From assembly GCA_051294905.1 (NCBI GenBank), contig CM119372.1, positions 16,990,001 through 17,054,000 on the forward strand: DNA of 64,000 nt. The letters are read 5' to 3'. Source of the DNA: Botryllus schlosseri. Taxonomy: Eukaryota. The first letter of the stretch is position 1, and every line of letters begins with the position of its first letter. Below the pieces are notes generated by a model. The model was given only the letters and a program-made list of their open reading frames with translations, had not been told where the DNA came from and ran no database searches. The position numbers and the translations under genes were made by a program. Shown here in pieces: positions 33,001 through 57,900 of the stretch.

Positions 33001-33759
33001 TGGAAGGCCATTGCTGGCCAGATATATTCGATACTGCAGCCCATTTTACTGATTTGGCGCACGACGCCGCCCACACACCTCGTTACGTCTTATGCCTTGC
33101 GCACAGCACCGTAACTGCCGCACCCCAAACCCCCCAATTGGGGGTGCAGAGCTCGAAGGGGGCCCAAAATTATTTCGTGAATTAGCATAAATCATGGAGT
33201 ATTTTTTGAAAATTTATGCAATTTTTTTTTTTAAATTTCGCGCTGTGCGCGAATTCAAGTAGCCATTTATCTATATTATTGGGAATTGGGCCATTACCGC
33301 GCCACGACCCACCAAGACATACAATCAAGTTTTAGGCCATATAACATGCGACTCCGAGAAGTGTGTCAGAACGATCGGCAGCGAGAAAAGCTTGGCCGAA
33401 AAGGTCTATGCCCTTATGCAGACCGAAGACTTCGTTATATAGGCTATACAAATTACATATAGGTTTAAATGTCCATAGGCGCCTAAATGACTAATTTGAA
33501 ATCGTGTGCGTCTCTTAGTTTAGAAGCCTACGTTTGGGCGATCCTATATTTTTTGATATAGCAGACTGGAAATCACGAAATAACATCATGTAACGAAGTC
33601 ATATCAACGGGTCCGCCCGCCCGAAGATGTTTATTCGTTATTTACGGGCCCTCCCGTTTTCAAGACACTTCACTCAGCTCTACCGGTAAATCTAATTACG
33701 TGAGTAGAGAGGACAATAAATTGATAGCATAATATAGTAGTATTATACACGGTAACGGG

Positions 33760-34450
33760 ACGCGCCCCAATCAACGTCGAGTATTTGATCACGTGACATC
33801 TGTTAGCCAATCAGAACGCAGAACAATGTGGGTGTGGTTTCAATACGAGAGAGGTTTTGGTTGTGCGAGAGATGGCATAGTTCCAGTCCAGTAACGCTGA
33901 GATATGTTTACGTCATGTTTGCGTAAGTTGATTACCTTCATTATGATTGCGTATTGCAGCATATTCATGATTACGTCATATGCGTAGTTGATTACTTTAG
34001 TTATTACGAGAGCGGCTTTGCTTAGTTCCAGTAATGCTCAGATATGATTACGTCATGATTGCGTCTAGTTCCAGTCCAATAACACTGAGAAATACGTTAA
34101 TATGATTGTGTAGTTGAAGCATGTTCATGATTACGTCATATGCGTAGTTGATTACTTTAGTAACGCTGAGATATGATTACGTCAATATTGCGTTGATTGC
34201 CTTTGCAGTTGAAGCAAGTGCAAGGCAATATATATAACGTATAATATTTATTACATGATTATTCGCTACACGCTGTAGATGGAATATGTCAAAGATTACT
34301 GCTAATGATATATACGTCATAATGGATCGAATTGACCTGATGAACTGGTATATTTACGTCATTATGATTGTGTAGTTGAAGCATGTTCAGTAATGATTAC
34401 GTCATATGCGATTACTTTAGTAACGCTGAGATATGATTACGTCAATATTG
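33760..34450 (+). promoter_or_regulatory. Subterminal TF-site cluster (CCAAT x2, E-box TCACGTGA, 8x TTACGTCA) in tandem repeats; mirrored at ~56560-57250
   Basis: Motifs read directly; TTACGTCA near 33908, 33971, 34047, 34131, 34177, 34354, 34397, 34437. Confidence 0.55.
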
Positions 34451-34554
34451 CGTTGATCGCCTTTGTTATTGCAGTTGAAGCAAGTGCAAGGCAATATATA
34501 ACGTGTAATATTTATTACATGATTATTCGCTGTACGCTGTAGATTGAATATGTG

Positions 34555-36040
34555 TAATAATATAAAAATTGGCAAAAATTGTGAATATCTAATCATTGTG
34601 AAAATAGCAATTATCTCATGTTGTTGATGAAAATGATCAGCTTACGTTGTTATAAGCTCCAAAGCATGATTTAAATATTTTTTAAATATTCCATTTTTTA
34701 AAATAATATTACTTTGGTTCTAACTTTGGAATAATAATTATTGATAATATTTTCATTATTCATTGAAATCATTGTAGCTTATAATGGTGTACATCTTTTA
34801 AATATTATTGTAATGATTTCAATTAATACCGAAAAAATATTATCAATAATTATTATTCCAAAGTTAGAACCAAAGTAATATTTTTTCTAAAATGGAATAT
34901 TTAAAAAATATTTAAATCATGCTTTGGAGCTTAAAACAGCGTAAGCTGATTATTTTCATCAACTACACGAGATAATTGCTAATTTCACAATGATAACATA
35001 TTCAGTAATAATATAAAAATTGGCTAATATTGTGAATATCGAATCATTGTGAAATTAGCAATTATTTCATGTTGTTGATGAAAATGATCAGCTTACGTTA
35101 TTATAAGCACCAAAGCATGATTTAAATATTTTCAAATATTCCACTTTTTAAATATTATTACTTTGGTTCTAACTTTGAAACAACAATTATTAATAATATT
35201 TTTTCATCATTCATTGAAATCATTGTAGCTTATAACGGGTGAACTGAACATCTTTTTAATAATATTGTTGCTTTGTGAATATCTTATTGATTTTTAGTTA
35301 AATTATCGATTATCTTGTATAGTTGATAAAGTAGTTGTACAAAAGACGTTCACTGTTATAATCTACATGATTTCAATGATTATTAAAAATAATTTTAATA
35401 ATAAATCTAGCAAAGTAATAATATAGAAAATTGGCTAATATTGTGAATATCTTATCATTGTGAAATTAGCAATTATCTCGTGTTGTTGATGAAAATAATC
35501 ATCTTACGTTGTATTAGGATTTATTTTACAAAACCGTAGTGTAAAGGTCTTTAGTACTTTGGAAAAAGTAGTTTCTATCTACTTTACTAAATTTGATGTA
35601 AAGTGTTCGGCGATTTAAAAAATTGGTATTTATTTTACAAAATTCCCAGTATAAACGTTTTTACAAAATCGACTTGAGTAAGTACTGTCACTAGGCAAAC
35701 CCTAGCAGAGTGTACTCTGATAAATGTAGTAGTAGTAATCGATTATCGCGAAATAAATAGATAACATACAATATGTGCGTTGCTACGATGTCTCATAAAT
35801 ACTTTCATTTAATGTATACAAGTAGGTTATTTATACGTTAAGTCAAGAATAAAAAAATTAACGCTGTCTCCATAGAAAGATATGTAAATATACTAGAACG
35901 GTTACATCTGGACGCCTGCAAGTAAGAACGTAAGCTGATCATTTTCGTCAACAACATGAGATAATTGCTAATTTCACAATTATTGGATATTCACAATATA
36001 AGCCAATTTCTATATTATTACTGAATATCTTATCATTGTG
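34555..36040. repeat. AT-rich ~200-bp unit repeated in direct and inverted orientation (local hairpins); mirrored at ~54975-56460
   Basis: Units near 34555(+), 34810-35003(-), 35005(+), 35415(+, partial), 35930-36035(-). Confidence 0.75.
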
Positions 36041-36111
36041 AGGTTTATTCAACTCTCATTAATTCAGGATTCTAGAACTACTGAAGTCTCATGGATTTAT
36101 AAAATACCGTG

Positions 36112-36190
36112 CTTTGCAAACAATGTAAAAAATAATAGAAGCGAAGTTAGCTTGGTTCCCTAGGGACATATATGCCTTTGTCAGGAATGT
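36112..36190 (+). pseudogene. Decayed IAP-type RING finger (C3HC4) fragment
   Basis: With one A removed from an A6 run: LCKQCKNNRSEVSLVP*GHICLCQEC = C-x2-C-x11-[C]-G-H-x3-C-x2-C. Confidence 0.55.
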
Positions 36191-36629
36191 TCATCCAACG
36201 ATTAGGTAATTGAATACGCGCGATTATCAATGCGTCTTGAAAAGCTAGTGGACGGAAGTGAATACCCTAGACAAGTGCGAACCTGTATATATTGCAGCAT
36301 ATTAAAGATAGCTTGTGCAATAGCCCTAAATACAACAAGATGCGGAGAGCTGATATCGCAATAGGTGCGCGGTATTCGACAATAACAAAACGCAATTGTT
36401 CGAACTTAGTGGATCCCATACCGCATTGTTAGCTCTAAATACTTAACCGTTGAAAAATCTATTCCCCAATGAGTTAGACAGCAATGCGTTAGTCGTAGCG
36501 ATTCAATCGTGTGCTCCATAATAACAAAAACACAAATGACTTAGTGGATATCACTGCTAGCTCTAAATACCAGTTGCATAGCTGAGGCTAAATGCCGTAA
36601 ATAACTACTGAGTTGGCCGAGTGGTGATT

Positions 36630-39600
36630 TACTCGCTCGGAAATCGTCACTTCTTGCACTTTACTAAAAATTTGCTGCTACTAAAATGTTAAAATGTACT
36701 TTTTTCAATGGCCTTGATGAGCAGCGTCAGTTTCATCTATATCCTATCATGCATTTTCGCACAGCAGAATGACTTATCGCATCGTAAAATAGCAAAAATA
36801 GGCTACATCGAGAATCTGCAGATTCTCACTGCGAAATATTTGAGTTTTACGAATTATCCTTCAAAGTGAGCTTACATATTGGATATCATCCAAACCCTCT
36901 CGATATCGAAATAATTGATTATTGGGAGTACTCGAGTATAGGTTTCGCCTGTCTGGGCTATACTTAATCAAGTGATTATCTGTTTAGACTAGAGTTTTCA
37001 GTTATCAGACAAATAATACCTTCAATACTTACTTTTTTTAGTCACTCGGAAATCAGCACATCATGTACTTTGGAAGAAACTTACTGGTAATAGAATGTTG
37101 AAATGTACTTTTCCATTGGGCTTGATGAGCGGGCCCAGTTTCATCTATATCCTACCATGCATTTTCGCACTTCAGAGTGACTTATCACAATGAAAAATAG
37201 CGGAGTCTCACTATACGATAATTGAGTTTTACAAATTACCCTTCGAAGTGAACCTACATGTTGGGTATTATCCAAAACCTTGTAGAATGTCGCTCCGAGC
37301 GACAAATCCTTTGAATTAAGGTGGAAGCAGCTATTTCCGACTAAGTAAAATGTTAGTATTCTAGGTCTATTTCTGCTTAATTCTGAAACTATAATGGATT
37401 TGAAGCAGTACAATATCATAAACACTTGAGAGTATTTGGTACATGTACACTAAAAACTTACTTGAGTATACTCTGAAGAAGTCAACATTTACTTGTTTAG
37501 CCGCTCGGAAATCATCACTTCTTGTACTTTACTAGAAATTCACTGCTGATGAATGAGTAATCGACTTTATTCAATATTCTCGTACTACGAAACTGAAGAA
37601 TGAATAGAGGCGTTTTCGAACTATAGAATGATATAGTCTCTACAAAATGTTTTTGATATCAAAATAACTTTTTTACATGAATGGTCACGTATCTTAATAT
37701 TCAAATAACCCAACACAGAACTAGTATTACAAGAATATCATAGTTCTTGTACCAAAGTTGTTTGTGCACAATATATGTTTAAGGTAAGTCCTACACATTC
37801 ATGATTTCGTCCGAGTTTGTATTTTAGAAAATAATATACCGACATCGCGACATCTTTCAAAAACAAAACCATGATCACTGCTTGAGAGACCTATCAATGT
37901 CATCACAGTAATCTTGTAACTTCCACAAAAGAGTAGATATGTATTTGACTTTCGTTCCACAAAGCTAACGCGCAAACAATTTACTTTACTAACGAGAAGT
38001 ATCGAGTTATCGAATGATTTTCCCTTACATCAAAACAAATAGAATGTAGATTGTAGAACTATATTTCTAACGTTCCTAACCCTTTGCACACCGCAGTTGT
38101 AAATCACACAAGCAACAAGTTTCGAGAAACGAGTTATTGAATAACGTGAAAGTGTTTTTCCAGTGTCAAGTCGTTATGTTGATTAAAGCATATAATGTAA
38201 TACCATGAAGTGAGACTTCGAAACTATCGTCAGTTCTCCATGAGCAAATATCGTGTTCTACAAGTGTTAAGATATTGTATTATGTAGCTAGTAATTAGTG
38301 CACGTAATCTCGGGATCGAACCAACGTGTGTTAACTTGCGTTATTATGTACCTAGTAATTGGTGCGAGTAATGCCGCAACTGCTGTTGTTCAATGCATTT
38401 ACCATGTTCGTAGCAAGCATCTTAATAAGGATAGACAGCGCCAAGCAAATAATGTAAGTATGTATGTATGAATGATTGGTCTAATGGTGCTTAACGACAG
38501 AAACTGGTCTTCTATTCTATATTCCGAAATAATCAAGTTGGTGGTTTACCAACACCTCGCCTCATAGAAACTTGGTAGAATCACTTATAAATCCTCACGT
38601 TCACTTAACTAAATCTAATTTGATACTCGAGTACTGAACCTTAATTTTCCAGCAGTGTGATAGACGCCGTCAGATGGTACTCAACATCGCATAATTCTGC
38701 TCGAATACAAGTAAAAGTACAGATTTTAAAGTAAGTAAGTAAGTAAGTAAGTAGGTAAAAGTGAGTAACTGGTTATGTTTGTAGACTATATCTCCACTTC
38801 TACCTTTCAGAGATGTTGAGCAGAGAAGTACATGTGTTTCTTCAAAGTAGTCAAGTAGGTTTTTGGCTACATGCACCAACTACTCAAGTGTTTATGATAT
38901 AGGCCTGTTTCGAATTCAAGTCAGTTTCAGTATTAAACAAAAATGGACCGTGAATACTAACTTTTTATAATGTGAAATTTTAAATGCATAAACGAAGAAA
39001 CGTCACTTTTACAATGCTTCGGTATTATTTCTATATTATTCCACTCTCGTTATTGGACTGCGGTGTGCCGGTGAGCTATACCTCGATGCCCGGGCTTCCG
39101 AATTAATTTTTTTCGATTTATTCTACCCTATGTAGATTTAACATAAGGAAGGTTATTTCACTCATAAAATTTGAAATACGTATTTGCTCGAGTTAAAGCC
39201 ATAACGCTTGGAGTGAAATTTTACGGGGTTTTCGTTAATATCCAACTTGGCTAATTCCGAAATATAAATTGAAAAACTCAAATATCGCATAGTAGGACTT
39301 CGCAAATTTTCGATACATTTTTTGCTATTTTTTCATGGTGATAAGTCATTCGGGACGGTGAAATGCATTATAGGAAATAGATGAAACTGGTACAATTCAT
39401 CAAGACCCCTGAAAAAATTACATTACATTTCAACATCTTATTAGCAGGTAATCGAAATATCACAAACTGTGCTAACCTTCGGAGTTGTTAAGTAAAGAAG
39501 TACTCGTACTTCTTCGGAGTACCCAAGTAGGTTTTTCGCCTACATGCACCAAATACTCTCAAATCCTTATGATGTTGGAGTGCTTCAACTTCATGATAGT

Positions 39601-40110
39601 TATAGTATTAAGCAGAAATATACCTGGAGTACTAACGTTTTACTTACTCGGAAATGACTACTTCTATCTTATTTTAAAGGATTCCCCGCTCGTCGCGAAA
39701 TTTTATTAGGTTTTGAATAATATCCAACATGTAGGTTCACTTTGAAGGGTACTTCGTAAAACTCAAATATTGCACAGTGAGAGTTCGCTAATTCTCGATG
39801 TATTTTTTGGTATTTTTATTGCGGTAAGTCATTCTGCAGCGCGAAAATGCCTCGTAGGATATAGATGAAACTGACAACGCTCACCAAGACCACTGGACCA
39901 CTGAAAAAGTACGTTTCAATATTTTAGTAGCAGTAAAGTCCTAGTAAAGTACCAGAAGTGATGATTTCCGAGTTAGTTAAAAAGTAAGTATTGTAGGTAT
40001 AGTTTGCTCGAAAACCGAAAACTCTGAAATAGAAGTAGATGCAGTGTAAAAAAGTTAATCACTTGATTAAGTATAGCACAAGCAGACCAAACCTATACAT
40101 GAGTACTTCA
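36630..40110. repeat. Diverged internal repeats inside the palindrome arm
   Basis: Unit CTCGGAAATC...CAGTTTCATCTATATCC...TCCAAAACC near 36636, 37044 and 37504 (partial) and inverted near 39240-39480 and 39710-39975; also a ~300-bp direct pair near 38277 and 40724. Confidence 0.7.
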
Positions 40111-41363
40111 AAATGTACAAGTACTTCGCTATGGACTCCCTCCACGTAAAATGTGACTAGGTTTTAGACTACTTTATCGGTACTTGACAGTTTCAGTTTT
40201 AGATAAGATTTGGAATAAAAAACTAGCTCATTCACCCACTTGGAAATCTCTTCTTTAACCTGTACTTGAGCGTAGCAAGTAAATCTCATTTAATATTAAT
40301 TCTACACGTACACTTGACCCTATTTTATGACTTACATAATTACTTTTCCATATATTTTAAGTCAAGTCTGTCAAATAGCAGTATATGTTACGATGAGCTT
40401 ATATTCGTTCTGTTTGATCATCTTGACTAATGATATTCACTCGGCGAGCTCTCCAGTGATAGCTTTGGGACTTGGAACAGTGTTATATGACATCATAGCG
40501 ATACGAGGTTACGACCGTTTATAATTAGCTACCTTACGACACCAAATTTCGTTAGTTCATCTCCACCTTCAAATATCGTGTTATACAAATATTGTGTATA
40601 CGGAACAAATACATATATGGCTATGTTGTTGCAATCTGCAAAAAAGTACCTCCCTCAGTAACCAATTTCTGGTAGGCTATGCATACAAATGAGGACAGTT
40701 ACATCAACGAGTCGTAACTTGTTGTATTATGTAGCTAGTAATTTGTGCAAGTAAGTCCGCAACTACTGTTCAAGTCCTTTTCCGCGTTTTTTGTCAAGCA
40801 TCATAGTAAGGACAGACAGTCCCAATCAGCTAATGTAAGTGTGTATGTATGTATGAGGGGTCTTATGGTCGTTGACGAATGAAGTTGGTCGTCTATTCTA
40901 TTCCGAAATAATCAAGTTAGTGCTTTTTAACAGGACCTCACCTCATAGAAACTTCAGTAGAATAACTTATAACTCCTCACGTTTACTCAACTAAATCTAA
41001 TTTGATAATCAAGTACTGAATCTTAATTTTCAAACGAGTTCAAATTTTACTCTAACTTATGAGATTACATATAATAACTTTTCACGATGCAATGTATTTT
41101 ACAGCATGAGCCAAGTGATTTCGTAATTAACACAAGATAATTAAATGAATTTCTAGAGTATTACAAGATATTCGTGTCATCCTCCTTCGTATATCATAAA
41201 AGAATATCTACTGCAGTCGATTTGTAATTATTTGCACTGTGTTTGATTAACTCAATCATGTCGCAGTGTTTTTTATTAACGAAACTCTTTTACAGCATAA
41301 ACCAAATAATTTCATAATAAACACACTAATTTCATAATAAACATAAAAAAATATTTCCGCGCC

Positions 41364-41405
41364 CTCCTAAACCTAATTCCTCCTAACCCTATAACCTAAT
41401 CCTGA
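41364..41405. other. Palindrome centre: 42-bp telomere-like spacer
   Basis: CTCCTAAACCTAATTCCTCCTAACCCTATAACCTAATCCTGA between ATATTTCCGCGCC and GGCGCGGAAATAT. Confidence 0.85.
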
Positions 41406-44400
41406 GGCGCGGAAATATTTTTTATGTTTATTATGAAATTAGTGTGTTTATTATGAAATTATTTGGTTTATGCTGTAAAAGAGTTTCGTTAATAAAAAAC
41501 ACTGCGACATGATTGAGTTAATCAAACACAGTGCAAATAATTACAAATCGACTGCAGTAGATATTCTTTTATGATATACGAAGGAGGATGACACGAATAT
41601 CTTGTAATACTCTAGAAATTCATTTAATTATCTTGTGTTAATTACGAAATCACTTGGCTCATGCTGTAAAATACATTGCATCGTGAAAAGTTATTATATG
41701 TAATCTCATAAGTTAGAGTAAAATTTGAACTCGTTTGAAAATTAAGATTCAGTACTTGATTATCAAATTAGATTTAGTTGAGTAAACGTGAGGAGTTATA
41801 AGTTATTCTACTGAAGTTTCTATGAGGTGAGGTCCTGTTAAAAAGCACTAACTTGATTATTTCGGAATAGAATAGACGACCAACTTCATTCGTCAACGAC
41901 CATAAGACCCCTCATACATACATACACACTTACATTAGCTGATTGGGACTGTCTGTCCTTACTATGATGCTTGACAAAAAACGCGGAAAAGGACTTGAAC
42001 AGTAGTTGCGGACTTACTTGCACAAATTACTAGCTACATAATACAACAAGTTACGACTCGTTGATGTAACTGTCCTCATTTGTATGCATAGCCTACCAGA
42101 AATTGGTTACTGAGGGAGGTACTTTTTTGCAGATTGCAACAACATAGCCATATATGTATTTGTTCCGTATACACAATATTTGTATAACACGATATTTGAA
42201 GGTGGAGATGAACTAACGAAATTTGGTGTCGTAAGGTAGCTAATTATAAACGGTCGTAACCTCGTATCGCTATGATGTCATATAACACTGTTCCAAGTCC
42301 CAAAGCTATCACTGGAGAGCTCGCCGAGTGAATATCATTAGTCAAGATGATCAAACAGAACGAATATAAGCTCATCGTAACATATACTGCTATTTGACAG
42401 ACTTGACTTAAAATATATGGAAAAGTAATTATGTAAGTCATAAAATAGGGTCAAGTGTACGTGTAGAATTAATATTAAATGAGATTTACTTGCTACGCTC
42501 AAGTACAGGTTAAAGAAGAGATTTCCAAGTGGGTGAATGAGCTAGTTTTTTATTCCAAATCTTATCTAAAACTGAAACTGTCAAGTACCGATAAAGTAGT
42601 CTAAAACCTAGTCACATTTTACGTGGAGGGAGTCCATAGCGAAGTACTTGTACATTTTGAAGTACTCATGTATAGGTTTGGTCTGCTTGTGCTATACTTA
42701 ATCAAGTGATTAACTTTTTTACACTGCATCTACTTCTATTTCAGAGTTTTCGGTTTTCGAGCAAACTATACCTACAATACTTACTTTTTAACTAACTCGG
42801 AAATCATCACTTCTGGTACTTTACTAGGACTTTACTGCTACTAAAATATTGAAACGTACTTTTTCAGTGGTCCAGTGGTCTTGGTGAGCGTTGTCAGTTT
42901 CATCTATATCCTACGAGGCATTTTCGCGCTGCAGAATGACTTACCGCAATAAAAATACCAAAAAATACATCGAGAATTAGCGAACTCTCACTGTGCAATA
43001 TTTGAGTTTTACGAAGTACCCTTCAAAGTGAACCTACATGTTGGATATTATTCAAAACCTAATAAAATTTCGCGACGAGCGGGGAATCCTTTAAAATAAG
43101 ATAGAAGTAGTCATTTCCGAGTAAGTAAAACGTTAGTACTCCAGGTATATTTCTGCTTAATACTATAACTATCATGAAGTTGAAGCACTCCAACATCATA
43201 AGGATTTGAGAGTATTTGGTGCATGTAGGCGAAAAACCTACTTGGGTACTCCGAAGAAGTACGAGTACTTCTTTACTTAACAACTCCGAAGGTTAGCACA
43301 GTTTGTGATATTTCGATTACCTGCTAATAAGATGTTGAAATGTAATGTAATTTTTTCAGGGGTCTTGATGAATTGTACCAGTTTCATCTATTTCCTATAA
43401 TGCATTTCACCGTCCCGAATGACTTATCACCATGAAAAAATAGCAAAAAATGTATCGAAAATTTGCGAAGTCCTACTATGCGATATTTGAGTTTTTCAAT
43501 TTATATTTCGGAATTAGCCAAGTTGGATATTAACGAAAACCCCGTAAAATTTCACTCCAAGCGTTATGGCTTTAACTCGAGCAAATACGTATTTCAAATT
43601 TTATGAGTGAAATAACCTTCCTTATGTTAAATCTACATAGGGTAGAATAAATCGAAAAAAATTAATTCGGAAGCCCGGGCATCGAGGTATAGCTCACCGG
43701 CACACCGCAGTCCAATAACGAGAGTGGAATAATATAGAAATAATACCGAAGCATTGTAAAAGTGACGTTTCTTCGTTTATGCATTTAAAATTTCACATTA
43801 TAAAAAGTTAGTATTCACGGTCCATTTTTGTTTAATACTGAAACTGACTTGAATTCGAAACAGGCCTATATCATAAACACTTGAGTAGTTGGTGCATGTA
43901 GCCAAAAACCTACTTGACTACTTTGAAGAAACACATGTACTTCTCTGCTCAACATCTCTGAAAGGTAGAAGTGGAGATATAGTCTACAAACATAACCAGT
44001 TACTCACTTTTACCTACTTACTTACTTACTTACTTACTTTAAAATCTGTACTTTTACTTGTATTCGAGCAGAATTATGCGATGTTGAGTACCATCTGACG
44101 GCGTCTATTCACACTGCTGGAAAATTAAGGTTCAGTACTCGAGTATCAAATTAGATTTAGTTAAGTGAACGTGAGGATTTATAAGTGATTCTACCAAGTT
44201 TCTATGAGGCGAGGTGTTGGTAAACCACCAACTTGATTATTTCGGAATATAGAATAGAAGACCAGTTTCTGTCGTTAAGCACCATTAGACCAATCATTCA
44301 TACATACAGTACTTACATTATTTGCTTGGCGCTGTCTATCCTTATTAAGATGCTTGCTACGAACATGGTAAATGCATTGAACAACAGCAGTTGCGGCATT

Positions 44401-45695: not shown

Positions 45696-45795
45696 NNNNN
45701 NNNNNNNNNNNNNNNNNNNNNNNNNNNNNNNNNNNNNNNNNNNNNNNNNNNNNNNNNNNNNNNNNNNNNNNNNNNNNNNNNNNNNNNNNNNNNNN
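45696..45795. other. Assembly gap (100 N)
   Basis: Run of N; sequence after the gap restarts at the equivalent of 37550. Confidence 0.99.
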
Positions 45796-48700: not shown

Positions 48701-49608
48701 GTGATAGCTTTGGGACTTGGAACAGTGTTATATGACATCATAGCGATACGAGGTTACGACCGTTTATAATTAGCTACCTTACGACACCAAATTTCGTTAG
48801 TTCATCTCCACCTTCAAATATCGTGTTATACAAATATTGTGTATACGGAACAAATACATATATGGCTATGTTGTTGCAATCTGCAAAAAAGTACCTCCCT
48901 CAGTAACCAATTTCTGGTAGGCTATGCATACAAATGAGGACAGTTACATCAACGAGTCGTAACTTGTTGTATTATGTAGCTAGTAATTTGTGCAAGTAAG
49001 TCCGCAACTACTGTTCAAGTCCTTTTCCGCGTTTTTTGTCAAGCATCATAGTAAGGACAGACAGTCCCAATCAGCTAATGTAAGTGTGTATGTATGTATG
49101 AGGGGTCTTATGGTCGTTGACGAATGAAGTTGGTCGTCTATTCTATTCCGAAATAATCAAGTTAGTGCTTTTTAACAGGACCTCACCTCATAGAAACTTC
49201 AGTAGAATAACTTATAACTCCTCACGTTTACTCAACTAAATCTAATTTGATAATCAAGTACTGAATCTTAATTTTCAAACGAGTTCAAATTTTACTCTAA
49301 CTTATGAGATTACATATAATAACTTTTCACGATGCAATGTATTTTACAGCATGAGCCAAGTGATTTCGTAATTAACACAAGATAATTAAATGAATTTCTA
49401 GAGTATTACAAGATATTCGTGTCATCCTCCTTCGTATATCATAAAAGAATATCTACTGCAGTCGATTTGTAATTATTTGCACTGTGTTTGATTAACTCAA
49501 TCATGTCGCAGTGTTTTTTATTAACGAAACTCTTTTACAGCATAAACCAAATAATTTCATAATAAACACACTAATTTCATAATAAACATAAAAAAATATT
49601 TCCGCGCC

Positions 49609-49650
49609 CTCCTAAACCTAATTCCTCCTAACCCTATAACCTAATCCTGA
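49609..49650. other. Second copy of the palindrome centre (same orientation, offset 8245 bp)
   Basis: Identical spacer and stems to 41364-41405. Confidence 0.85.
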
Positions 49651-52600
49651 GGCGCGGAAATATTTTTTATGTTTATTATGAAATTAGTGTGTTTATTATG
49701 AAATTATTTGGTTTATGCTGTAAAAGAGTTTCGTTAATAAAAAACACTGCGACATGATTGAGTTAATCAAACACAGTGCAAATAATTACAAATCGACTGC
49801 AGTAGATATTCTTTTATGATATACGAAGGAGGATGACACGAATATCTTGTAATACTCTAGAAATTCATTTAATTATCTTGTGTTAATTACGAAATCACTT
49901 GGCTCATGCTGTAAAATACATTGCATCGTGAAAAGTTATTATATGTAATCTCATAAGTTAGAGTAAAATTTGAACTCGTTTGAAAATTAAGATTCAGTAC
50001 TTGATTATCAAATTAGATTTAGTTGAGTAAACGTGAGGAGTTATAAGTTATTCTACTGAAGTTTCTATGAGGTGAGGTCCTGTTAAAAAGCACTAACTTG
50101 ATTATTTCGGAATAGAATAGACGACCAACTTCATTCGTCAACGACCATAAGACCCCTCATACATACATACACACTTACATTAGCTGATTGGGACTGTCTG
50201 TCCTTACTATGATGCTTGACAAAAAACGCGGAAAAGGACTTGAACAGTAGTTGCGGACTTACTTGCACAAATTACTAGCTACATAATACAACAAGTTACG
50301 ACTCGTTGATGTAACTGTCCTCATTTGTATGCATAGCCTACCAGAAATTGGTTACTGAGGGAGGTACTTTTTTGCAGATTGCAACAACATAGCCATATAT
50401 GTATTTGTTCCGTATACACAATATTTGTATAACACGATATTTGAAGGTGGAGATGAACTAACGAAATTTGGTGTCGTAAGGTAGCTAATTATAAACGGTC
50501 GTAACCTCGTATCGCTATGATGTCATATAACACTGTTCCAAGTCCCAAAGCTATCACTGGAGAGCTCGCCGAGTGAATATCATTAGTCAAGATGATCAAA
50601 CAGAACGAATATAAGCTCATCGTAACATATACTGCTATTTGACAGACTTGACTTAAAATATATGGAAAAGTAATTATGTAAGTCATAAAATAGGGTCAAG
50701 TGTACGTGTAGAATTAATATTAAATGAGATTTACTTGCTACGCTCAAGTACAGGTTAAAGAAGAGATTTCCAAGTGGGTGAATGAGCTAGTTTTTTATTC
50801 CAAATCTTATCTAAAACTGAAACTGTCAAGTACCGATAAAGTAGTCTAAAACCTAGTCACATTTTACGTGGAGGGAGTCCATAGCGAAGTACTTGTACAT
50901 TTTGAAGTACTCATGTATAGGTTTGGTCTGCTTGTGCTATACTTAATCAAGTGATTAACTTTTTTACACTGCATCTACTTCTATTTCAGAGTTTTCGGTT
51001 TTCGAGCAAACTATACCTACAATACTTACTTTTTAACTAACTCGGAAATCATCACTTCTGGTACTTTACTAGGACTTTACTGCTACTAAAATATTGAAAC
51101 GTACTTTTTCAGTGGTCCAGTGGTCTTGGTGAGCGTTGTCAGTTTCATCTATATCCTACGAGGCATTTTCGCGCTGCAGAATGACTTACCGCAATAAAAA
51201 TACCAAAAAATACATCGAGAATTAGCGAACTCTCACTGTGCAATATTTGAGTTTTACGAAGTACCCTTCAAAGTGAACCTACATGTTGGATATTATTCAA
51301 AACCTAATAAAATTTCGCGACGAGCGGGGAATCCTTTAAAATAAGATAGAAGTAGTCATTTCCGAGTAAGTAAAACGTTAGTACTCCAGGTATATTTCTG
51401 CTTAATACTATAACTATCATGAAGTTGAAGCACTCCAACATCATAAGGATTTGAGAGTATTTGGTGCATGTAGGCGAAAAACCTACTTGGGTACTCCGAA
51501 GAAGTACGAGTACTTCTTTACTTAACAACTCCGAAGGTTAGCACAGTTTGTGATATTTCGATTACCTGCTAATAAGATGTTGAAATGTAATGTAATTTTT
51601 TCAGGGGTCTTGATGAATTGTACCAGTTTCATCTATTTCCTATAATGCATTTCACCGTCCCGAATGACTTATCACCATGAAAAAATAGCAAAAAATGTAT
51701 CGAAAATTTGCGAAGTCCTACTATGCGATATTTGAGTTTTTCAATTTATATTTCGGAATTAGCCAAGTTGGATATTAACGAAAACCCCGTAAAATTTCAC
51801 TCCAAGCGTTATGGCTTTAACTCGAGCAAATACGTATTTCAAATTTTATGAGTGAAATAACCTTCCTTATGTTAAATCTACATAGGGTAGAATAAATCGA
51901 AAAAAATTAATTCGGAAGCCCGGGCATCGAGGTATAGCTCACCGGCACACCGCAGTCCAATAACGAGAGTGGAATAATATAGAAATAATACCGAAGCATT
52001 GTAAAAGTGACGTTTCTTCGTTTATGCATTTAAAATTTCACATTATAAAAAGTTAGTATTCACGGTCCATTTTTGTTTAATACTGAAACTGACTTGAATT
52101 CGAAACAGGCCTATATCATAAACACTTGAGTAGTTGGTGCATGTAGCCAAAAACCTACTTGACTACTTTGAAGAAACACATGTACTTCTCTGCTCAACAT
52201 CTCTGAAAGGTAGAAGTGGAGATATAGTCTACAAACATAACCAGTTACTCACTTTTACCTACTTACTTACTTACTTACTTACTTTAAAATCTGTACTTTT
52301 ACTTGTATTCGAGCAGAATTATGCGATGTTGAGTACCATCTGACGGCGTCTATCACACTGCTGGAAAATTAAGGTTCAGTACTCGAGTATCAAATTAGAT
52401 TTAGTTAAGTGAACGTGAGGATTTATAAGTGATTCTACCAAGTTTCTATGAGGCGAGGTGTTGGTAAACCACCAACTTGATTATTTCGGAATATAGAATA
52501 GAAGACCAGTTTCTGTCGTTAAGCACCATTAGACCAATCATTCATACATACATACTTACATTATTTGCTTGGCGCTGTCTATCCTTATTAAGATGCTTGC

Positions 52601-54822
52601 TACGAACATGGTAAATGCATTGAACAACAGCAGTTGCGGCATTACTCGCACCAATTACTAGGTACATAATAACGCAAGTTAACACACGTTGGTTCGATCC
52701 CGAGATTACGTGCACTAATTACTAGCTACATAATACAATATCTTAACACTTGTAGAACACGATATTTGCTCATGGAGAACTGACGATAGTTTCGAAGTCT
52801 CACTTCATGGTATTACATTATATGCTTTAATCAACATAACGACTTGACACTGGAAAAACACTTTCACGTTATTCAATAACTCGTTTCTCGAAACTTGTTG
52901 CTTGTGTGATTTACAACTGCGGTGTGCAAAGGGTTAGGAACGTTAGAAATATAGTTCTACAATCTACATTCTATTTGTTTTGATGTAAGGGAAAATCATT
53001 CGATAACTCGATACTTCTCGTTAGTAAAGTAAATTGTTTGCGCGTTAGCTTTGTGGAACGAAAGTCAAATACATATCTACTCTTTTGTGGAAGTTACAAG
53101 ATTACTGTGATGACATTGATAGGTCTCTCAAGCAGTGATCATGGTTTTGTTTTTGAAAGATGTCGCGATGTCGGTATATTATTTTCTAAAATACAAACTC
53201 GGACGAAATCATGAATGTGTAGGACTTACCTTAAACATATATTGTGCACAAACAACTTTGGTACAAGAACTATGATATTCTTGTAATACTAGTTCTGTGT
53301 TGGGTTATTTGAATATTAAGATACGTGACCATTCATGTAAAAAAGTTATTTTGATATCAAAAACATTTTGTAGAGACTATATCATTCTATAGTTCGAAAA
53401 CGCCTCTATTCATTCTTCAGTTTCGTAGTACGAGAATATTGAATAAAGTCGATTACTCATTCATCAGCAGTGAATTTCTAGTAAAGTACAAGAAGTGATG
53501 ATTTCCGAGCGGCTAAACAAGTAAATGTTGACTTCTTCAGAGTATACTCAAGTAAGTTTTTAGTGTACATGTACCAAATACTCTCAAGTGTTTATGATAT
53601 TGTACTGCTTCAAATCCATTATAGTTTCAGAATTAAGCAGAAATAGACCTAGAATACTAACATTTTACTTAGTCGGAAATAGCTGCTTCCACCTTAATTC
53701 AAAGGATTTGTCGCTCGGAGCGACATTCTACAAGGTTTTGGATAATACCCAACATGTAGGTTCACTTCGAAGGGTAATTTGTAAAACTCAATTATCGTAT
53801 AGTGAGACTCCGCTATTTTTCATTGTGATAAGTCACTCTGAAGTGCGAAAATGCATGGTAGGATATAGATGAAACTGGGCCCGCTCATCAAGCCCAATGG
53901 AAAAGTACATTTCAACATTCTATTACCAGTAAGTTTCTTCCAAAGTACATGATGTGCTGATTTCCGAGTGACTAAAAAAAGTAAGTATTGAAGGTATTAT
54001 TTGTCTGATAACTGAAAACTCTAGTCTAAACAGATAATCACTTGATTAAGTATAGCCCAGACAGGCGAAACCTATACTCGAGTACTCCCAATAATCAATT
54101 ATTTCGATATCGAGAGGGTTTGGATGATATCCAATATGTAAGCTCACTTTGAAGGATAATTCGTAAAACTCAAATATTTCGCAGTGAGAATCTGCAGATT
54201 CTCGATGTAGCCTATTTTTGCTATTTTACGATGCGATAAGTCATTCTGCTGTGCGAAAATGCATGATAGGATATAGATGAAACTGACGCTGCTCATCAAG
54301 GCCATTGAAAAAAGTACATTTTAACATTTTAGTAGCAGCAAATTTTTAGTAAAGTGCAAGAAGTGACGATTTCCGAGCGAGTAAATCACCACTCGGCCAA
54401 CTCAGTAGTTATTTACGGCATTTAGCCTCAGCTATGCAACTGGTATTTAGAGCTAGCAGTGATATCCACTAAGTCATTTGTGTTTTTGTTATTATGGAGC
54501 ACACGATTGAATCGCTACGACTAACGCATTGCTGTCTAACTCATTGGGGAATAGATTTTTCAACGGTTAAGTATTTAGAGCTAACAATGCGGTATGGGAT
54601 CCACTAAGTTCGAACAATTGCGTTTTGTTATTGTCGAATACCGCGCACCTATTGCGATATCAGCTCTCCGCATCTTGTTGTATTTAGGGCTATTGCACAA
54701 GCTATCTTTAATATGCTGCAATATATACAGGTTCGCACTTGTCTAGGGTATTCACTTCCGTCCACTAGCTTTTCAAGACGCATTGATAATCGCGCGTATT
54801 CAATTACCTAATCGTTGGATGA

Positions 54823-54901
54823 ACATTCCTGACAAAGGCATATATGTCCCTAGGGAACCAAGCTAACTTCGCTTCTATTATTTTTTACATTGTTTGCAAA
54901 G
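54823..54901 (-). pseudogene. Mirror copy of the RING finger remnant
   Basis: Reverse complement of 36112-36190 with the same lesions. Confidence 0.55.
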
Positions 54902-57900
54902 CACGGTATTTTATAAATCCATGAGACTTCAGTAGTTCTAGAATCCTGAATTAATGAGAGTTGAATAAACCTCACAATGATAAGATATTCAGTAATAATA
55001 TAGAAATTGGCTTATATTGTGAATATCCAATAATTGTGAAATTAGCAATTATCTCATGTTGTTGACGAAAATGATCAGCTTACGTTCTTACTTGCAGGCG
55101 TCCAGATGTAACCGTTCTAGTATATTTACATATCTTTCTATGGAGACAGCGTTAATTTTTTTATTCTTGACTTAACGTATAAATAACCTACTTGTATACA
55201 TTAAATGAAAGTATTTATGAGACATCGTAGCAACGCACATATTGTATGTTATCTATTTATTTCGCGATAATCGATTACTACTACTACATTTATCAGAGTA
55301 CACTCTGCTAGGGTTTGCCTAGTGACAGTACTTACTCAAGTCGATTTTGTAAAAACGTTTATACTGGGAATTTTGTAAAATAAATACCAATTTTTTAAAT
55401 CGCCGAACACTTTACATCAAATTTAGTAAAGTAGATAGAAACTACTTTTTCCAAAGTACTAAAGACCTTTACACTACGGTTTTGTAAAATAAATCCTAAT
55501 ACAACGTAAGATGATTATTTTCATCAACAACACGAGATAATTGCTAATTTCACAATGATAAGATATTCACAATATTAGCCAATTTTCTATATTATTACTT
55601 TGCTAGATTTATTATTAAAATTATTTTTAATAATCATTGAAATCATGTAGATTATAACAGTGAACGTGTTTTGTACAACTACTTTATCAACTATACAAGA
55701 TAATCGATAATTTAACTAAAAATCAATAAGATATTCACAAAGCAACAATATTATTAAAAAGATGTTCAGTTCACCCGTTATAAGCTACAATGATTTCAAT
55801 GAATGATGAAAAAATATTATTAATAATTGTTGTTTCAAAGTTAGAACCAAAGTAATAATATTTAAAAAGTGGAATATTTGAAAATATTTAAATCATGCTT
55901 TGGTGCTTATAATAACGTAAGCTGATCATTTTCATCAACAACATGAAATAATTGCTAATTTCACAATGATTCGATATTCACAATATTAGCCATTTTTTAT
56001 ATTATTACTGAATATGTTATCATTGTGAAATTAGCAATTATCTCGTGTAGTTGATGAAAATAATCAGCTTACGCTGTTATAAGCTCCAAAGCATGATTTA
56101 AATATTTTTTAAATATTCCATTTCAGAAAAAATATTACTTTGGTTCTAACTTTGGAATAATAATTATTGATAATATTTTTTCGGTATTAATTGAAATCAT
56201 TACAATAATATTTAAAAGATGTACACCATTATAAGCTACAATGATTTCAATGAATAATGAAAATATTATCAATAATTATTATTCCAAAGTTAGAACCAAA
56301 GTAATATTATTTTAAAAAATGGAATATTTAAAAAATATTTAAATCATGCTTTGGAGCTTATAACAACGTAAGCTGATCATTTTCATCAACAACATGAGAT
56401 AATTGCTATTTTCACAATGATTAGATATTCACAATTTTTGCCAATTTTTATATTATTACACATATTCAATCTACAGCGTACAGCGAATAATCATGTAATA
56501 AATATTACACGTTATATATTGCCTTGCACTTGCTTCAACTGCAATAACAAAGGCGATCAACGCAATATTGACGTAATCATATCTCAGCGTTACTAAAGTA
56601 ATCGCATATGACGTAATCATTACTGAACATGCTTCAACTACACAATCATAATGACGTAAATATACCAGTTCATCAGGTCAATTCGATCCATTATGACGTA
56701 TATATCATTAGCAGTAATCTTTGACATATTCCATCTACAGCGTGTAGCGAATAATCATGTAATAAATATTATACGTTATATATATTGCCTTGCACTTGCT
56801 TCAACTGCAAAGGCAATCAACGCAATATTGACGTAATCATATCTCAGCGTTACTAAAGTAATCAACTACGCATATGACGTAATCATGAACATGCTTCAAC
56901 TACACAATCATATTAACGTATTTCTCAGTGTTATTGGACTGGAACTAGACGCAATCATGACGTAATCATATCTGAGCATTACTGGAACTAAGCAAAGCCG
57001 CTCTCGTAATAACTAAAGTAATCAACTACGCATATGACGTAATCATGAATATGCTGCAATACGCAATCATAATGAAGGTAATCAACTTACGCAAACATGA
57101 CGTAAACATATCTCAGCGTTACTGGACTGGAACTATGCCATCTCTCGCACAACCAAAACCTCTCTCGTATTGAAACCACACCCACATTGTTCTGCGTTCT
57201 GATTGGCTAACAGATGTCACGTGATCAAATACTCGACGTTGATTGGGGCGCGTCCCGTTACCGTGTATTATACTACTTAATATATATGCAATCGCCCATC
57301 TGATTGACCGATTTTATCATAAATTATCGAAAATTTTCGCGCCTCGCGCTGGCTCACAATACAGTACAGATAATTTCGTGACAAACGCGACCAACGTGAT
57401 CGGGGGGGGGTCGTGTTATCACCCTATGGGAGCCCAATACCCACGTATTTTGGGGCCTGACGAGGTGCTGTTTCGTTCCTGCCAACGAATATACCCCCGA
57501 AGATGTTTAATTGTTATTGAGTGGTCCTACCTTTTCAAACACACCTCACTCAGCTCTACCGGCAAATCTGATTACGTGAGCAGAGAAGAAAAAAAATTGA
57601 TAACATTATATGCAATTCCTGATCATACTAAACCAGGGCCGGCCAACCCGTGGCCCGCGGGCCACATGTGGCCCGCGAGAAGGTTTTGAGTGGCCCGCGT
57701 GGTGATTTCCGAAATTAGTAACATAATACAAAATGGATTGCACCGATTGTGAACTTTGTGAAAATGAAAGAACGCCAAATGTATCAGATTGAGTCTAATT
57801 CAGGGGTTCTCACAGGGTGGGCCATGGCCCACCCGTGGGCCACAGGAGCATTTGAGGTGGGTCGCAAAGCTATTTAGAAAATTTTAGAATTGATGTTTAG

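What the first reader, a model, noticed from the sequence alone, without database searches (positions are those of the whole stretch)
33736..57277. Giant fully palindromic, gene-less element with Polinton/Maverick ends: candidate snap-back (defective) polintovirus genome integrated as a unit
Seen: the element starts AGTAGT, ends ACTACT and is flanked by an exact 6-bp TSD (TAATAT). The whole ~7.6-kb left arm is the reverse complement of the right arm around a 42-bp spacer, and there is no pPolB, integrase, ATPase, protease or capsid ORF. Established: Polintons have 6-bp TSDs (retroviral-type integrase), 5'-AG termini with short tandem repeats used in protein-primed initiation, TIRs usually under ~1 kb and lengths of about 15-20 kb. 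Inference: one end of a Polinton was copied back on itself, as in copy-back/snap-back defective genomes of linear DNA viruses. The product has two identical origins and integrase sites, sits at Polinton size (~15.3 kb) and was mobilised in trans. This would be a satellite/defective-interfering class of Polinton parasite.
Basis: partly seen in the sequence, partly recalled or inferred. Interest (0 to 1): 0.9.

Follow-up and report, generated by a model that had tools for sequence, protein, structure and literature searches.

The report
Palindromic gene-less Polinton parasite family
This is one copy of a multi-copy family of about 15-kb, gene-less, almost perfectly palindromic mobile elements built from two copies of the left end of a coding Polinton (virus-like transposon) that lives in the same genome, and the extra 8 kb at this locus is an assembly duplication around a gap.

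Summary
The ends (AGTAGT../..ACTACT), the 6-bp duplication TAATAT, the 7.6-kb inverted arms, the 42-nt asymmetric centre and the lack of genes are all real. The stated span (23.5 kb) is not the element's size. It holds a 100-N scaffold gap flanked by two overlapping contig ends that repeat the centre; the true element is about 15.3 kb.

It is not a one-off. An arm-specific probe found 14 loci, each with plus and minus copies. Gap-free copies of 14.5-16.1 kb have different 6-bp duplications and arms 99.2-99.9% alike.

A 17,873-bp Polinton in the same genome has a polymerase-B-motif ORF, an rve+chromo integrase and an A32-type ATPase. Its left end matches the first 617 bp of both arms at 92%; its right end matches only the 257-bp terminal repeat. 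So both ends of the palindrome are Polinton left ends. The remaining ~6.8 kb per arm is non-coding and not from this Polinton.

Differences between copies are almost all mirrored in both arms (158-281 mirrored against 2-39 one-armed substitutions), so the arms evolve in concert.

Best reading: a non-autonomous, helper-dependent Polinton derivative formed by inverted duplication of one end. Mobilisation in trans and the way symmetry is renewed are inferred. I found no published counterpart.

The parts
33730..33735 (.). Left target-site duplication TAATAT
   Evidence: Two of 2 paralogous empty sites (L055, L056) hold a single TAATAT.
33736..41363 (+). Left arm, 7,628 bp, non-coding, starting AGTAGTATTATACACGG
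   Evidence: None of 10 ORFs of 60 aa or more matches Pfam.
33736..34553 (+). [quoted passage not shown] Arm positions 1-617 match at 92% and 620-818 at 90%. Only the first 257 bp also match the Polinton's right end, i.e. its TIR.
33908..34445 (+). Cluster of 8 same-strand copies of TTACGTCA inside a ~23-nt repeat (GAGATATGATTACGTCAT-like). There are none elsewhere in the arm. Candidate binding or packaging sites.
   Evidence: The function is inferred.
41364..41405 (+). 42-nt asymmetric centre (CTCCTAAACCTAATTCC...; four TTAGG on the other strand), closed by the stem AAATATTTCCGCGCC/GGCGCGGAAATATTT
   Evidence: Conserved in all 13 hits at other copies and in both window copies, including the second subfamily.
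41406..45695 (-). End of the left contig: a redundant, indel-rich second reading of the inner 4.3 kb of the right arm
   Evidence: 99.02% to 49651-53910, with 3 mismatches and 33 gap openings
45696..45795 (.). 100-N scaffold gap
45796..49608 (+). Start of the right contig: a redundant second reading of left-arm positions 37550-41363
   Evidence: 99.97%, with 0 mismatches and 1 gap
49609..49650 (+). Second reading of the same 42-nt centre, in the same orientation as the first
49651..57277 (-). Right arm, 7,627 bp, ending ..ACTACT
57278..57283 (.). Right target-site duplication TAATAT

Best explanation
The locus holds one ~15.3-kb member of a family of non-autonomous Polinton/Maverick derivatives. 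Each member is an almost perfect palindrome: two inverted 7.2-8.1-kb non-coding arms around a conserved 42-nt asymmetric centre.

Each outer end is a copy of the LEFT end of a coding Polinton resident in the same genome. That end comprises the AGTAGT terminus, the 242-257-bp terminal repeat, and a further ~360-560 bp of left-specific sequence rich in a TTACGTCA repeat.

Shown:
- The ends are shared with a coding Polinton.
- Copies have 6-bp duplications at many different sites, and empty sites exist.
- All members of the family examined are palindromic.
- The arms evolve in concert.
- The extra 8.2 kb at this locus is an assembly duplication around a gap.

Inferred:
- The family arose by inverted (tail-to-tail, copy-back) duplication of a defective left-end fragment.
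- It carries two identical replication origins and integrase sites.
- It is replicated by the helper's protein-primed polymerase and inserted by the helper's integrase.
- Its symmetry is renewed mostly during that extrachromosomal phase, either by copy-back at the centre or by repair of the snapped-back hairpin. Arms would then be near-identical at insertion and drift apart afterwards.
For: 1. Boundaries and mobility. Seven of 10 palindromic copies examined have perfect and mutually different 6-bp TSDs: TAATAT, TGCGAC, ATAATA, CTAGAT, AGTATG, CTTGCC and CGATTG. The other three match at 4/6, 4/6 and 5/6. Paralogous empty sites were found in 2 of 2 fetched copies of the host repeat.

2. Family.
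- The terminal 18-mer (up to 1 mismatch) occurs 23 times forward and 29 times reverse, against 4 and 3 for the control.
- A 1-kb arm-specific probe gives 14 loci. Thirteen have full-length copies on both strands; one has a truncated minus copy. No single-stranded locus was among those scored.
- Gap-free copies are self-complementary over 13.8-15.8 kb at 99.2-99.8%.
- At 6 further loci the conserved centre lies at the exact midpoint between the plus and minus termini.

3. Partner. C11:2511867-2529739 is 17,873 bp, with TSD CAAAAC and a 242-bp TIR.
- rve E=2e-13 with Chromo E=3e-10; Pox_A32 E=1e-9.
- A 1,310-aa ORF holds the strings IAYDFES, NSARYD, DANSLY, KLCGNSAFG and GDTDS. The motif names are from my own knowledge.
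- A 443-aa ORF resembles clusters carrying a DJR-like domain. This is an atlas lead only.

4. Both ends are left ends. Arm positions 1-617 match Polinton left 1-601 at 92.2%. The right end matches only arm 1-257 at 90.3%. The second subfamily behaves the same way.

5. Concerted arms. In the 9 comparisons between distinct elements there are 158-281 substitutions shared by both arms, against 2-39 in one arm only. Twenty-four of 33 indel blocks of 12 columns or more are mirrored; 8 of the 9 others belong to C11b, whose arms were mis-split by a one-arm insertion.

6. Arms look like a clock. Copies with perfect TSDs have arms at 99.65-99.93%. The rearranged C3b (TSD 5/6) has arms at 96.6-97.6%, and C11b (TSD 4/6) at 99.2-99.4%.

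7. Size. Single palindromes are 14.5-16.1 kb, which is 81-90% of the 17.87-kb partner.

8. Motif. There are 8 copies of TTACGTCA in arm positions 173-702, against 2 at the partner's left end.
Against: - About 6.8 kb of each arm has no counterpart in the partner. No tblastn hit of its polymerase, integrase or ATPase ORFs appears in 10 elements at E<=1e-3. Only two short DNA pieces match, at 78-80%. So the origin of most of the arm is unexplained. At least one ~380-bp piece is an unrelated high-copy repeat (1,296 candidates).
- Only one coding copy was read in full. An ancestor with a longer TIR would weaken the 'left end only' argument.
- C3a and C1a are 99.9% alike with different TSDs, and share 2 arm asymmetries at arm positions 4440 and 6408. 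Symmetry is therefore not remade at every transposition.
- C6 has a decayed TSD (4/6) but arms at 99.89%, against a strict clock.
- No extrachromosomal, protein-linked or packaged form has been seen. Helper dependence is untested.
- The 100% look of the window's arms could be partly due to assembly polishing.
Confidence: 0.75

Rival explanations
1. Same element and same origin, but the arms are kept alike in place, by arm-to-arm gene conversion in the chromosome (as in large sex-chromosome palindromes; this comparison is recalled). Nothing in the element's replication would be involved, and copies could then be old.
For: Concerted substitutions and indels are equally expected under this model. 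C6 has a decayed TSD but arms at 99.89%. The 2 asymmetries shared by C3a and C1a passed through a transposition unrepaired.
Against: C3b keeps both ends (TSD 5/6), yet its remaining arms are only 96.6-97.6% alike, as far apart as different elements are. C11b holds a 1,262-bp insertion in one arm only, and 40 one-arm substitutions. Since C3a and C1a split, 8 of 8 new differences are one-armed and 0 are mirrored.
Confidence: 0.3
2. The window's locus really is a 23.5-kb or longer double palindrome (arm, centre, arm', ..., arm, centre, arm'), for example a dimer, not an assembly duplication.
For: The gap's content is unknown. At least four other loci show doubled centres 8-12 kb apart: C16, C8, C4:272 and C12:79.
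Against: The sequences on both sides of the gap are redundant with the outer arms (99.02% and 99.97%). The left one differs almost only by indels, with 33 gap openings against 3 mismatches, as an unpolished contig end would. The only other doubled locus that I read has its own 100-N gap at the same place. All gap-free copies are single palindromes.
Confidence: 0.07
3. The palindromes are artefacts of long-read assembly (chimeric fold-back reads), not real DNA.
For: Fold-back chimeras are a known artefact (my own knowledge). Several loci broke the assembly. One unplaced contig, C165, consists of the element.
Against: Both ends sit in matching flanks with 6-bp duplications and a continuous empty-site sequence. 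There are many loci with locus-specific one-arm differences and one-arm nested insertions. A non-palindromic centre is conserved across two subfamilies. Arm sequence is present in contigs of an independent sample, X5, though those do not test the inversion.
Confidence: 0.03
4. It is a Foldback-type transposon of another superfamily (Mutator/FB, or P-like Galileo) that only resembles a Polinton at its tips.
For: It has very long inverted arms with subterminal repeats and no genes, as in FB and Galileo (abstracts of PMC3573991 and PMC4079207 in the listings).
Against: The TSD is 6 bp in every copy, not 9 or 7. The first 617 bp are 92% identical to the left end of a coding Polinton. No transposase ORF was found in any of 10 copies.
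Confidence: 0.03
5. The element acts for the host as a hairpin-RNA source. Transcribed through the centre, it would give double-stranded RNA covering 0.6-0.8 kb of the Polinton's left end and so silence the Polinton.
For: The geometry alone: perfect inverted arms that include Polinton sequence.
Against: It is mobile and multi-copy like a parasite. Nothing here points to a promoter or to selection by the host.
Confidence: 0.05

Closest known systems
Polinton/Maverick self-synthesising transposons (polintoviruses) and their non-autonomous derivatives
   Same: 6-bp TSD; 5'-AG..CT-3' ends with a short tandem repeat at the tip; terminal inverted repeats; size near 15-20 kb. The ends are 92% identical to those of a coding Polinton in the same genome. 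The general features of the family are as in PMC6431247 and PMC3014272 (passages read) and from my own knowledge of Kapitonov and Jurka 2006.
   Different: It has no genes at all. The 'TIR' is the whole element (7.6 kb per arm, against 242 bp in the partner). Both ends are left ends. The centre is a conserved asymmetric 42-nt loop. The arms evolve in concert.
Foldback elements (Drosophila FB, Galileo, Tetris)
   Same: Gene-less copies made almost wholly of long inverted arms with internal repeats, mobilised in trans (abstracts in the listings).
   Different: FB and Galileo make 9- and 7-bp TSDs (recalled) and belong to cut-and-paste superfamilies. Their arms are mostly tandem repeats of a few kb at most. 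Here the TSD is 6 bp, the arms are 7.6 kb of mostly unique sequence (Tandem Repeats Finder found only 2 small arrays), and the ends are Polinton ends.
Snap-back or inverted-repeat defective genomes of protein-primed linear replicons: adenovirus incomplete-particle DNA made of left-end sequences, and palindromic/hairpin deletion forms of the yeast pGKL1 killer plasmid
   Same: Both ends come from one end of the parent, joined as an inverted duplication. In adenovirus, the end that is kept is the one with the packaging signal, a set of short AT-rich repeats just inside the left ITR (PMC12090768, passages read). Here the kept end holds a cluster of short repeats just inside the TIR.
   Different: Those are laboratory or in-virion molecules, not integrated, heritable, diversified families with TSDs. 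The adenovirus inverted-repeat genomes (Daniell 1976) and the pGKL1 hairpin plasmid (Kikuchi et al. 1985) are recalled. Daniell 1976 was seen only as a reference-list entry and could not be opened. The pGKL1 paper was not found.
Large chromosomal palindromes kept alike by arm-to-arm gene conversion (e.g. primate Y-chromosome palindromes; recalled)
   Same: Arms of several kb at more than 99.9% identity around a short spacer, with concerted evolution.
   Different: Those are single-locus, gene-bearing and not mobile. Here there are TSD-flanked insertions at many loci.

Membership tests
Polinton/Maverick (as a non-autonomous member) | 6-bp target-site duplication | tested here: met
   Perfect in 7 of 10 palindromic copies, and 4/6, 4/6 and 5/6 in the others. 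Perfect in the coding copy. Empty sites confirmed.
Polinton/Maverick (as a non-autonomous member) | 5'-AG ... CT-3' termini with a 1-3-nt tandem repeat at the tip | tested here: met
   AGTAGT (two units) or AGTAGTAGT (three units) at all termini read
Polinton/Maverick (as a non-autonomous member) | Termini shared with an element that encodes a protein-primed polymerase B and an rve integrase | tested here: met
   The C11 copy has rve+Chromo, Pox_A32 and a polB-motif ORF. It is 92% identical to the arm over 617 bp. Pfam PF03175 itself did not match, so the polymerase call rests on motifs read by eye.
Polinton/Maverick (autonomous member) | Encodes its own polymerase, integrase, ATPase, protease and capsid | tested here: not met
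   No ORF over 102 aa in the arm. None of 10 ORFs matches Pfam. No tblastn hit of the partner's proteins.
Foldback (FB / Galileo type) | 9-bp (FB) or 7-bp (Galileo) TSD and ends shared with a Mutator- or P-type transposase gene | tested here: not met
   The TSD is 6 bp and the ends are Polinton ends. The TSD lengths of FB and Galileo are recalled.
Copy-back / snap-back defective genome | Both termini derive from the same end of the parent genome | tested here: met
   Arm 1-617 matches the partner's left end. The right end matches only the 257-bp TIR. Both subfamilies behave this way. Only one full partner was read.
Copy-back / snap-back defective genome | The arm is collinear with the parent genome up to the turn-around point | tested here: not met
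   Beyond ~0.8 kb only two short matches of 78-80% were found, one of them inverted. There are no protein remnants.
Copy-back / snap-back defective genome | Replication and spread depend on, and interfere with, a helper | not testable with these tools
   Needs experiments

The most novel reading that the evidence does not exclude
These are natural copy-back defective genomes of a polintovirus that have become a heritable, transposing lineage.
- They are replicated from two identical left-end origins by the helper's protein-primed polymerase.
- They are made symmetric again by hairpin copy-back at the conserved 42-nt centre.
- They are held at 81-90% of helper length because they must fit its capsid.
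- They carry extra copies of a left-end repeat (8 against 2) that lets them out-compete the helper for replication or packaging.

This would be the first defective-interfering or satellite class described for Polintons, and sequence-level evidence that Polintons pass through a single-stranded, snap-back stage.
Probability: 0.3. Interest if true: 0.85.

Novelty: new variant of a known kind. Interest (0 to 1): 0.62.

Why it matters
How Polintons replicate has never been shown. The proposed single-strand excision, pairing of the ends and protein-primed synthesis remain a model.

A diversified family of whole-element palindromes that keeps only one end of its helper bears on this in two ways:
- It marks which sequences are needed in cis: the terminus plus about 0.6 kb of left-specific repeats.
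- Its mirrored substitutions and indels are a natural record of a step that copies one arm from the other.

Practical points:
- Perfect 15-kb palindromes are expected to be fragile in chromosomes (my own knowledge).
- They visibly break this long-read assembly. They produced gaps with false duplications at two loci read here, and one unplaced contig. Annotators of this and related genomes should expect collapsed or doubled copies.
- If the arms are near-identical at insertion, arm-to-arm divergence could date each insertion, as LTR pairs do.

Tried and rejected
- Pfam PF03175 over the whole genome: 0 matches, and the tool's own controls also rang nowhere, so it is uninformative. Pfam and PDB sequence searches also left the 1,310-aa ORF unnamed.
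- Rfam on 33000-42000: 4 sub-threshold hairpin-like hits only (MIR7807 at 39 bits against a gathering score of 90; a Wolbachia sRNA model on the centre). I take these as chance hits on inverted repeats.
- Tandem Repeats Finder on the arm: 2 small arrays only. The arms are therefore not FB-like tandem arrays.
- RNA: no RNA holder was listed. In the one RNA run laid (about 6 in 100 of it read), 160 reads were laid and 159 lay only partly on the stretch. They were mostly on the flanking host repeat, and most arm bins were at 0. This says nothing either way about expression.
- Contigs of a second species label (organism B) cover the terminus and some arm pieces at 90-95%, at depths of 0-24. That is too thin, and too confounded by nested repeats, to claim the family occurs there.
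- Telomere idea for the centre: chromosome ends carry TTAGGG/TTAGG-type repeats, and the genome is full of interspersed degenerate TTAGG arrays (839+750 pattern hits). The centre's four TTAGG cannot be tied to telomere healing.
- A gradient of arm differences towards the centre: seen only in the window copy (5 of 5 differences within the outer 1,610 bp) and not in C3a, C1a, C1b or C11b. Dropped.
- C15:11059686, a 17,987-bp element with exactly the window's terminal variant, was checked as a possibly closer helper. It is a rearranged Polinton and shares only 244 bp with the arm.
- Literature: four searches for palindromic, foldback or non-autonomous Polinton derivatives found none (passages read in PMC6431247, PMC3014272 and bioRxiv 10.64898/2026.07.28.741278). 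The last reports 52-nt terminal palindromes in protist elements, which is a different thing. Repbase could not be searched.
The right ends of other coding copies and the other doubled loci (C8, C4:272, C15:223, C12:79) were therefore not read.
Full report
**1. What is in the sequence**

The element begins AGTAGTATTATACACGG at 33736 and ends ..ACTACT at 57277. TAATAT lies immediately outside both ends.

The outer 7.6 kb on each side are reverse complements. An ungapped comparison shows mismatches at only five positions (33744, 34889, 34934, 35020, 35345). The aligned arms differ by 5 substitutions and one gap column.

The arm turns around a 42-nt non-palindromic spacer at 41364-41405, closed by the stem AAATATTTCCGCGCC/GGCGCGGAAATATTT.

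One arm holds only 10 stop-to-stop frames of 60 aa or more. The longest is 102 aa, and none of the 10 matches Pfam at E<=0.01. The element is AT-rich: 33.9% G+C against 38.2% for the window.

**2. The stated span contains an assembly duplication**

33736-57277 is 23,542 bp, and the outer arms are 8,312 bp apart. In between lies a run of exactly 100 N at 45696-45795.

- Left of the gap, the sequence passes the centre and runs back along the arm. 41406-45694 equals 49651-53910 at 99.02%, with 3 mismatches but 33 gap openings.
- Right of the gap, the sequence restarts inside the arm. 45796-49608 equals 37550-41363 at 99.97%.
- It then passes a second copy of the spacer that has the same orientation as the first.

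Two copies of an asymmetric spacer in the same orientation, redundant sequence on both sides, and indel-type noise at one contig end are what two unmerged overlapping contigs of a single arm-centre-arm' element give.

A second locus on C16 has the same doubled layout and its own 100-N gap (L051 6507-6606).

**3. The insertion is real**

The left flank is a host repeat with 2,789 first-look candidates at 97-98% identity. Two other copies of that repeat were fetched, and both read straight from the window's left flank through a single TAATAT into the window's right flank.

Contig ends of an independent sample (X5, 6 contigs) and RNA reads (X23, 10 reads) that stop matching at 33736 continue with the same right-flank letters. 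These most likely come from other copies of the host repeat. They are paralogous empty sites, not proof of an empty allele.

**4. It is a family, and every member examined is a palindrome**

- The first 400 bp match 77 places in the genome.
- The terminal 18-mer with up to one mismatch occurs 23 times forward and 29 times reverse, against 4 and 3 for the reversed control. The hits form plus/minus pairs.
- I read nine further loci in full. C3a, C1a, C11a and C13 are self-complementary over 14.9-15.8 kb at 99.60-99.79%, and C11b over 13.8 kb at 99.20%. C4a and C6 have arms of 6.3 kb at 99.65% and 99.89%. C1b has arms at 99.91%. C3b is a rearranged 10.8-kb copy.
- TSDs are perfect and all different in 7 of 10 copies: TAATAT, TGCGAC, ATAATA, CTAGAT, AGTATG, CTTGCC, CGATTG. 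They match at 4/6, 4/6 and 5/6 in C11b, C6 and C3b.
- A 1-kb probe from a low-copy part of the arm finds 14 loci. Thirteen have full-length copies on both strands and one has a truncated minus copy. No one-stranded, non-palindromic progenitor was among those scored (40 of 549 candidates).
- At six further loci the conserved centre lies at the arithmetic midpoint between the plus and minus termini.
- Two subfamilies exist. One is 96-97% identical to the window's arm throughout. The other (C13, C11a, C4a) shares only the ends, the inner 2.3 kb and the centre, at 86-93%.
- The centre stem and loop are conserved in both. All 13 blast hits at other copies, and both copies in the window, carry it. 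The loop is unchanged in 8 of those 13 hits, has one change in 2, is cut short with one change in C3b, and has a 5-nt deletion and about five changes in the 3 copies of the second subfamily.

**5. The coding partner**

Seven plus/minus pairs lie 17,829-17,882 bp apart. I read one in full, C11:2511867-2529739. It is 17,873 bp with TSD CAAAAC and a TIR of only 242 bp at 98.3%. It encodes:

- a 352-aa rve integrase with a chromodomain (E=2e-13 and 3e-10);
- a 274-aa Pox_A32-type ATPase (E=1e-9);
- a 1,310-aa ORF that Pfam and PDB sequence searches leave unnamed. It contains IAYDFES, NSARYD, DANSLY, KLCGNSAFG and GDTDS in that order. From my own knowledge these are the ExoI, ExoII, PolA, PolB and PolC motifs of family-B polymerases;
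- a 443-aa ORF that resembles clusters in which 14-24% of members carry a DJR-like domain. This is a lead to a capsid protein, not a test.

Three other copies share 1.9 kb of left end with it at 96.7-97.8%. The remaining three are assigned by size only. An eighth pair, 17,987 bp apart, is a rearranged Polinton.

**6. Relation between palindrome and partner**

Arm positions 1-617 match the partner's left end (its first 601 bp) at 92.2%. Positions 620-818 match repeated left-end sequence at 89.8%. The partner's right end matches only arm 1-257, i.e. the TIR. The second subfamily behaves the same way. So both ends of the palindrome are left ends.

Beyond that there are only two short matches. Arm 2505-2590 matches at 80%, and arm 2631-2890 matches, inverted, at 78%. 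None of the partner's ORFs of 80 aa or more gives a tblastn hit in any of 10 palindromic elements at E<=1e-3, apart from spurious frames over the shared terminal DNA and one weak 35-residue hit over a shared non-coding piece in the second subfamily.

The shared left-specific part holds a ~23-nt repeat with the core TTACGTCA. There are 8 copies, all on one strand, at arm positions 173-702, and none in the other 6.9 kb. The partner has 2 at its left end, 2 inside its right TIR and 1 internal. C1b has about 1 kb more of this repeat region in both arms.

**7. The arms evolve in concert**

I aligned both arms of five subfamily-1 elements (win, C3a, C1a, C1b, C11b). C3b and C6 were left out as rearranged, and subfamily 2 as too divergent.

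- Arms of one element are 99.42-99.93% alike. Arms of different elements are 95.9-97.4% alike.
- Site by site, in the nine comparisons between distinct elements, 158-281 substitutions are shared by both arms of one element against both arms of the other. Only 2-39 are in one arm.
- Of 33 presence/absence blocks of 12 columns or more, 24 are mirrored. Eight of the nine others belong to C11b (a 1,262-bp one-arm insertion, and the mis-split it caused) and one is at C1b's deleted centre.

Something therefore copies changes, including indels of hundreds of bases, from one arm to the other.

The tenth pair is the exception that informs. C3a and C1a have different TSDs and are 99.9% alike. They show 0 mirrored differences and 8 one-arm differences (1 and 7). 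They share 2 arm asymmetries, at arm positions 4440 and 6408, besides the asymmetric centre. So a palindrome can be transposed with its small asymmetries intact, and since that event changes have been one-armed.

Copies with signs of age have less similar arms. C3b has TSD 5/6 and arms at 96.6-97.6%. C11b has TSD 4/6 and arms at 99.2-99.4%. C6 is a counter-example, with TSD 4/6 and arms at 99.89%.

**8. How it most likely works**

Shown:
- the cis ends of a coding Polinton;
- the integrase-type 6-bp duplication;
- many independent insertions;
- symmetry maintained over 3-10% of sequence divergence.

Inferred, from the published model of Polinton replication (Kapitonov and Jurka 2006, recalled; restated in bioRxiv 10.64898/2026.07.28.741278) and from adenovirus biology (PMC12090768):
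- The element offers two identical origins and integrase sites to the helper's terminal-protein-primed polymerase and integrase.
- A displaced single strand of such an element must snap back into a 7.6-kb hairpin with the 42-nt loop.
- Either repair of mismatches in that hairpin, or copy-back at the centre (the polymerase turning onto its own product), would re-symmetrise the arms often but not always. That fits sections 6 and 7.
- The retention of ~0.4-0.6 kb of left-specific repeats beyond the TIR, their multiplication, and the narrow size range (14.5-16.1 kb, 81-90% of the helper) suggest a left-end cis signal and a length constraint. Adenovirus has both: its packaging repeats lie just inside the left ITR. 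This last step is analogy, not evidence.

The main rival for the symmetry is arm-to-arm gene conversion in the chromosome, which I put at about 0.3. The two are not exclusive.

**9. Comparison with what is known**

The element passes every membership test for a non-autonomous Polinton that can be run on sequence. It fails the tests for Foldback-type elements (TSD length, partner).

As a 'copy-back defective genome' it meets the two-ends-from-one-end criterion. It fails collinearity with the present helper beyond 0.8 kb.

Four literature searches and the passages read found no description of whole-element palindromic Polinton derivatives. Repbase and subscription journals could not be checked, so 'not in print' holds only for those searches.

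**10. Verdict**

It needs three corrections: this is a diversified family, most of the arm is not Polinton sequence, and helper dependence is untested.

It is a new variant of a known kind, of clear interest to people who work on Polintons and on palindrome biology.

Noticed in passing
L053:115-519 (-), L054:4305-4784 (-), L054:5277-5795 (-) = G000:C11:2511867-2529739: The coding Polinton carries host-like cargo near both ends: a BIR/IAP-domain ORF (E=2e-11), a ubiquitin-conjugating E2 (E=2e-48) and a Bcl-2-family ORF (E=9e-20). This is an anti-apoptosis set typical of large DNA viruses.
   Followed up: partly
window 33400-33735 and 57284-57400: The element sits inside a copy of a very high-copy host repeat (2,789 candidates at 97-98% identity; word depth about 100 times that of the arms). 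Its other copies gave the empty-site sequence.
   Followed up: partly
window 37100-37480 (mirrored at 53533-53913): This ~380-bp piece of the arm is itself a high-copy interspersed repeat (1,296 candidates) and occurs again, inverted, within the same arm at 39520-39801 (81%). The arms are therefore partly built of other small repeats.
   Followed up: partly
G000:C1 and C2, many places (e.g. C1:18470901-18471213, C1:25943441-25943734): Interspersed loci with degenerate TTAGG/TTAGGG/TTAGGA arrays lying head to head, minus then plus, 100-200 bp apart. This is an unexplained second kind of small palindromic repeat. True terminal arrays are seen at C1:41841128-41841385 and C2:417-438.
   Followed up: no
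G000:C6:10008800-10028200 (element coordinates 17167-18412): One arm of the C6 copy holds a nested insertion with two overlapping ORFs (192 and 235 aa). Their sequence looks like a GIY-YIG endonuclease of a Penelope-like retroelement; that name is recalled and was not tested.
   Followed up: no
G000:C15:11059600-11062599 (L057): This 17,987-bp element has the window's exact terminal variant. It is a rearranged Polinton: right-end sequence is followed by an internal jump of ~3.9 kb and then left-region sequence.
   Followed up: partly
G000:C165 (whole small contig) and G000:C1:1-14862: An unplaced contig consists of the palindromic element, and chromosome-scale contig C1 begins inside a copy. 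These are further signs that the palindromes break the assembly.
   Followed up: no
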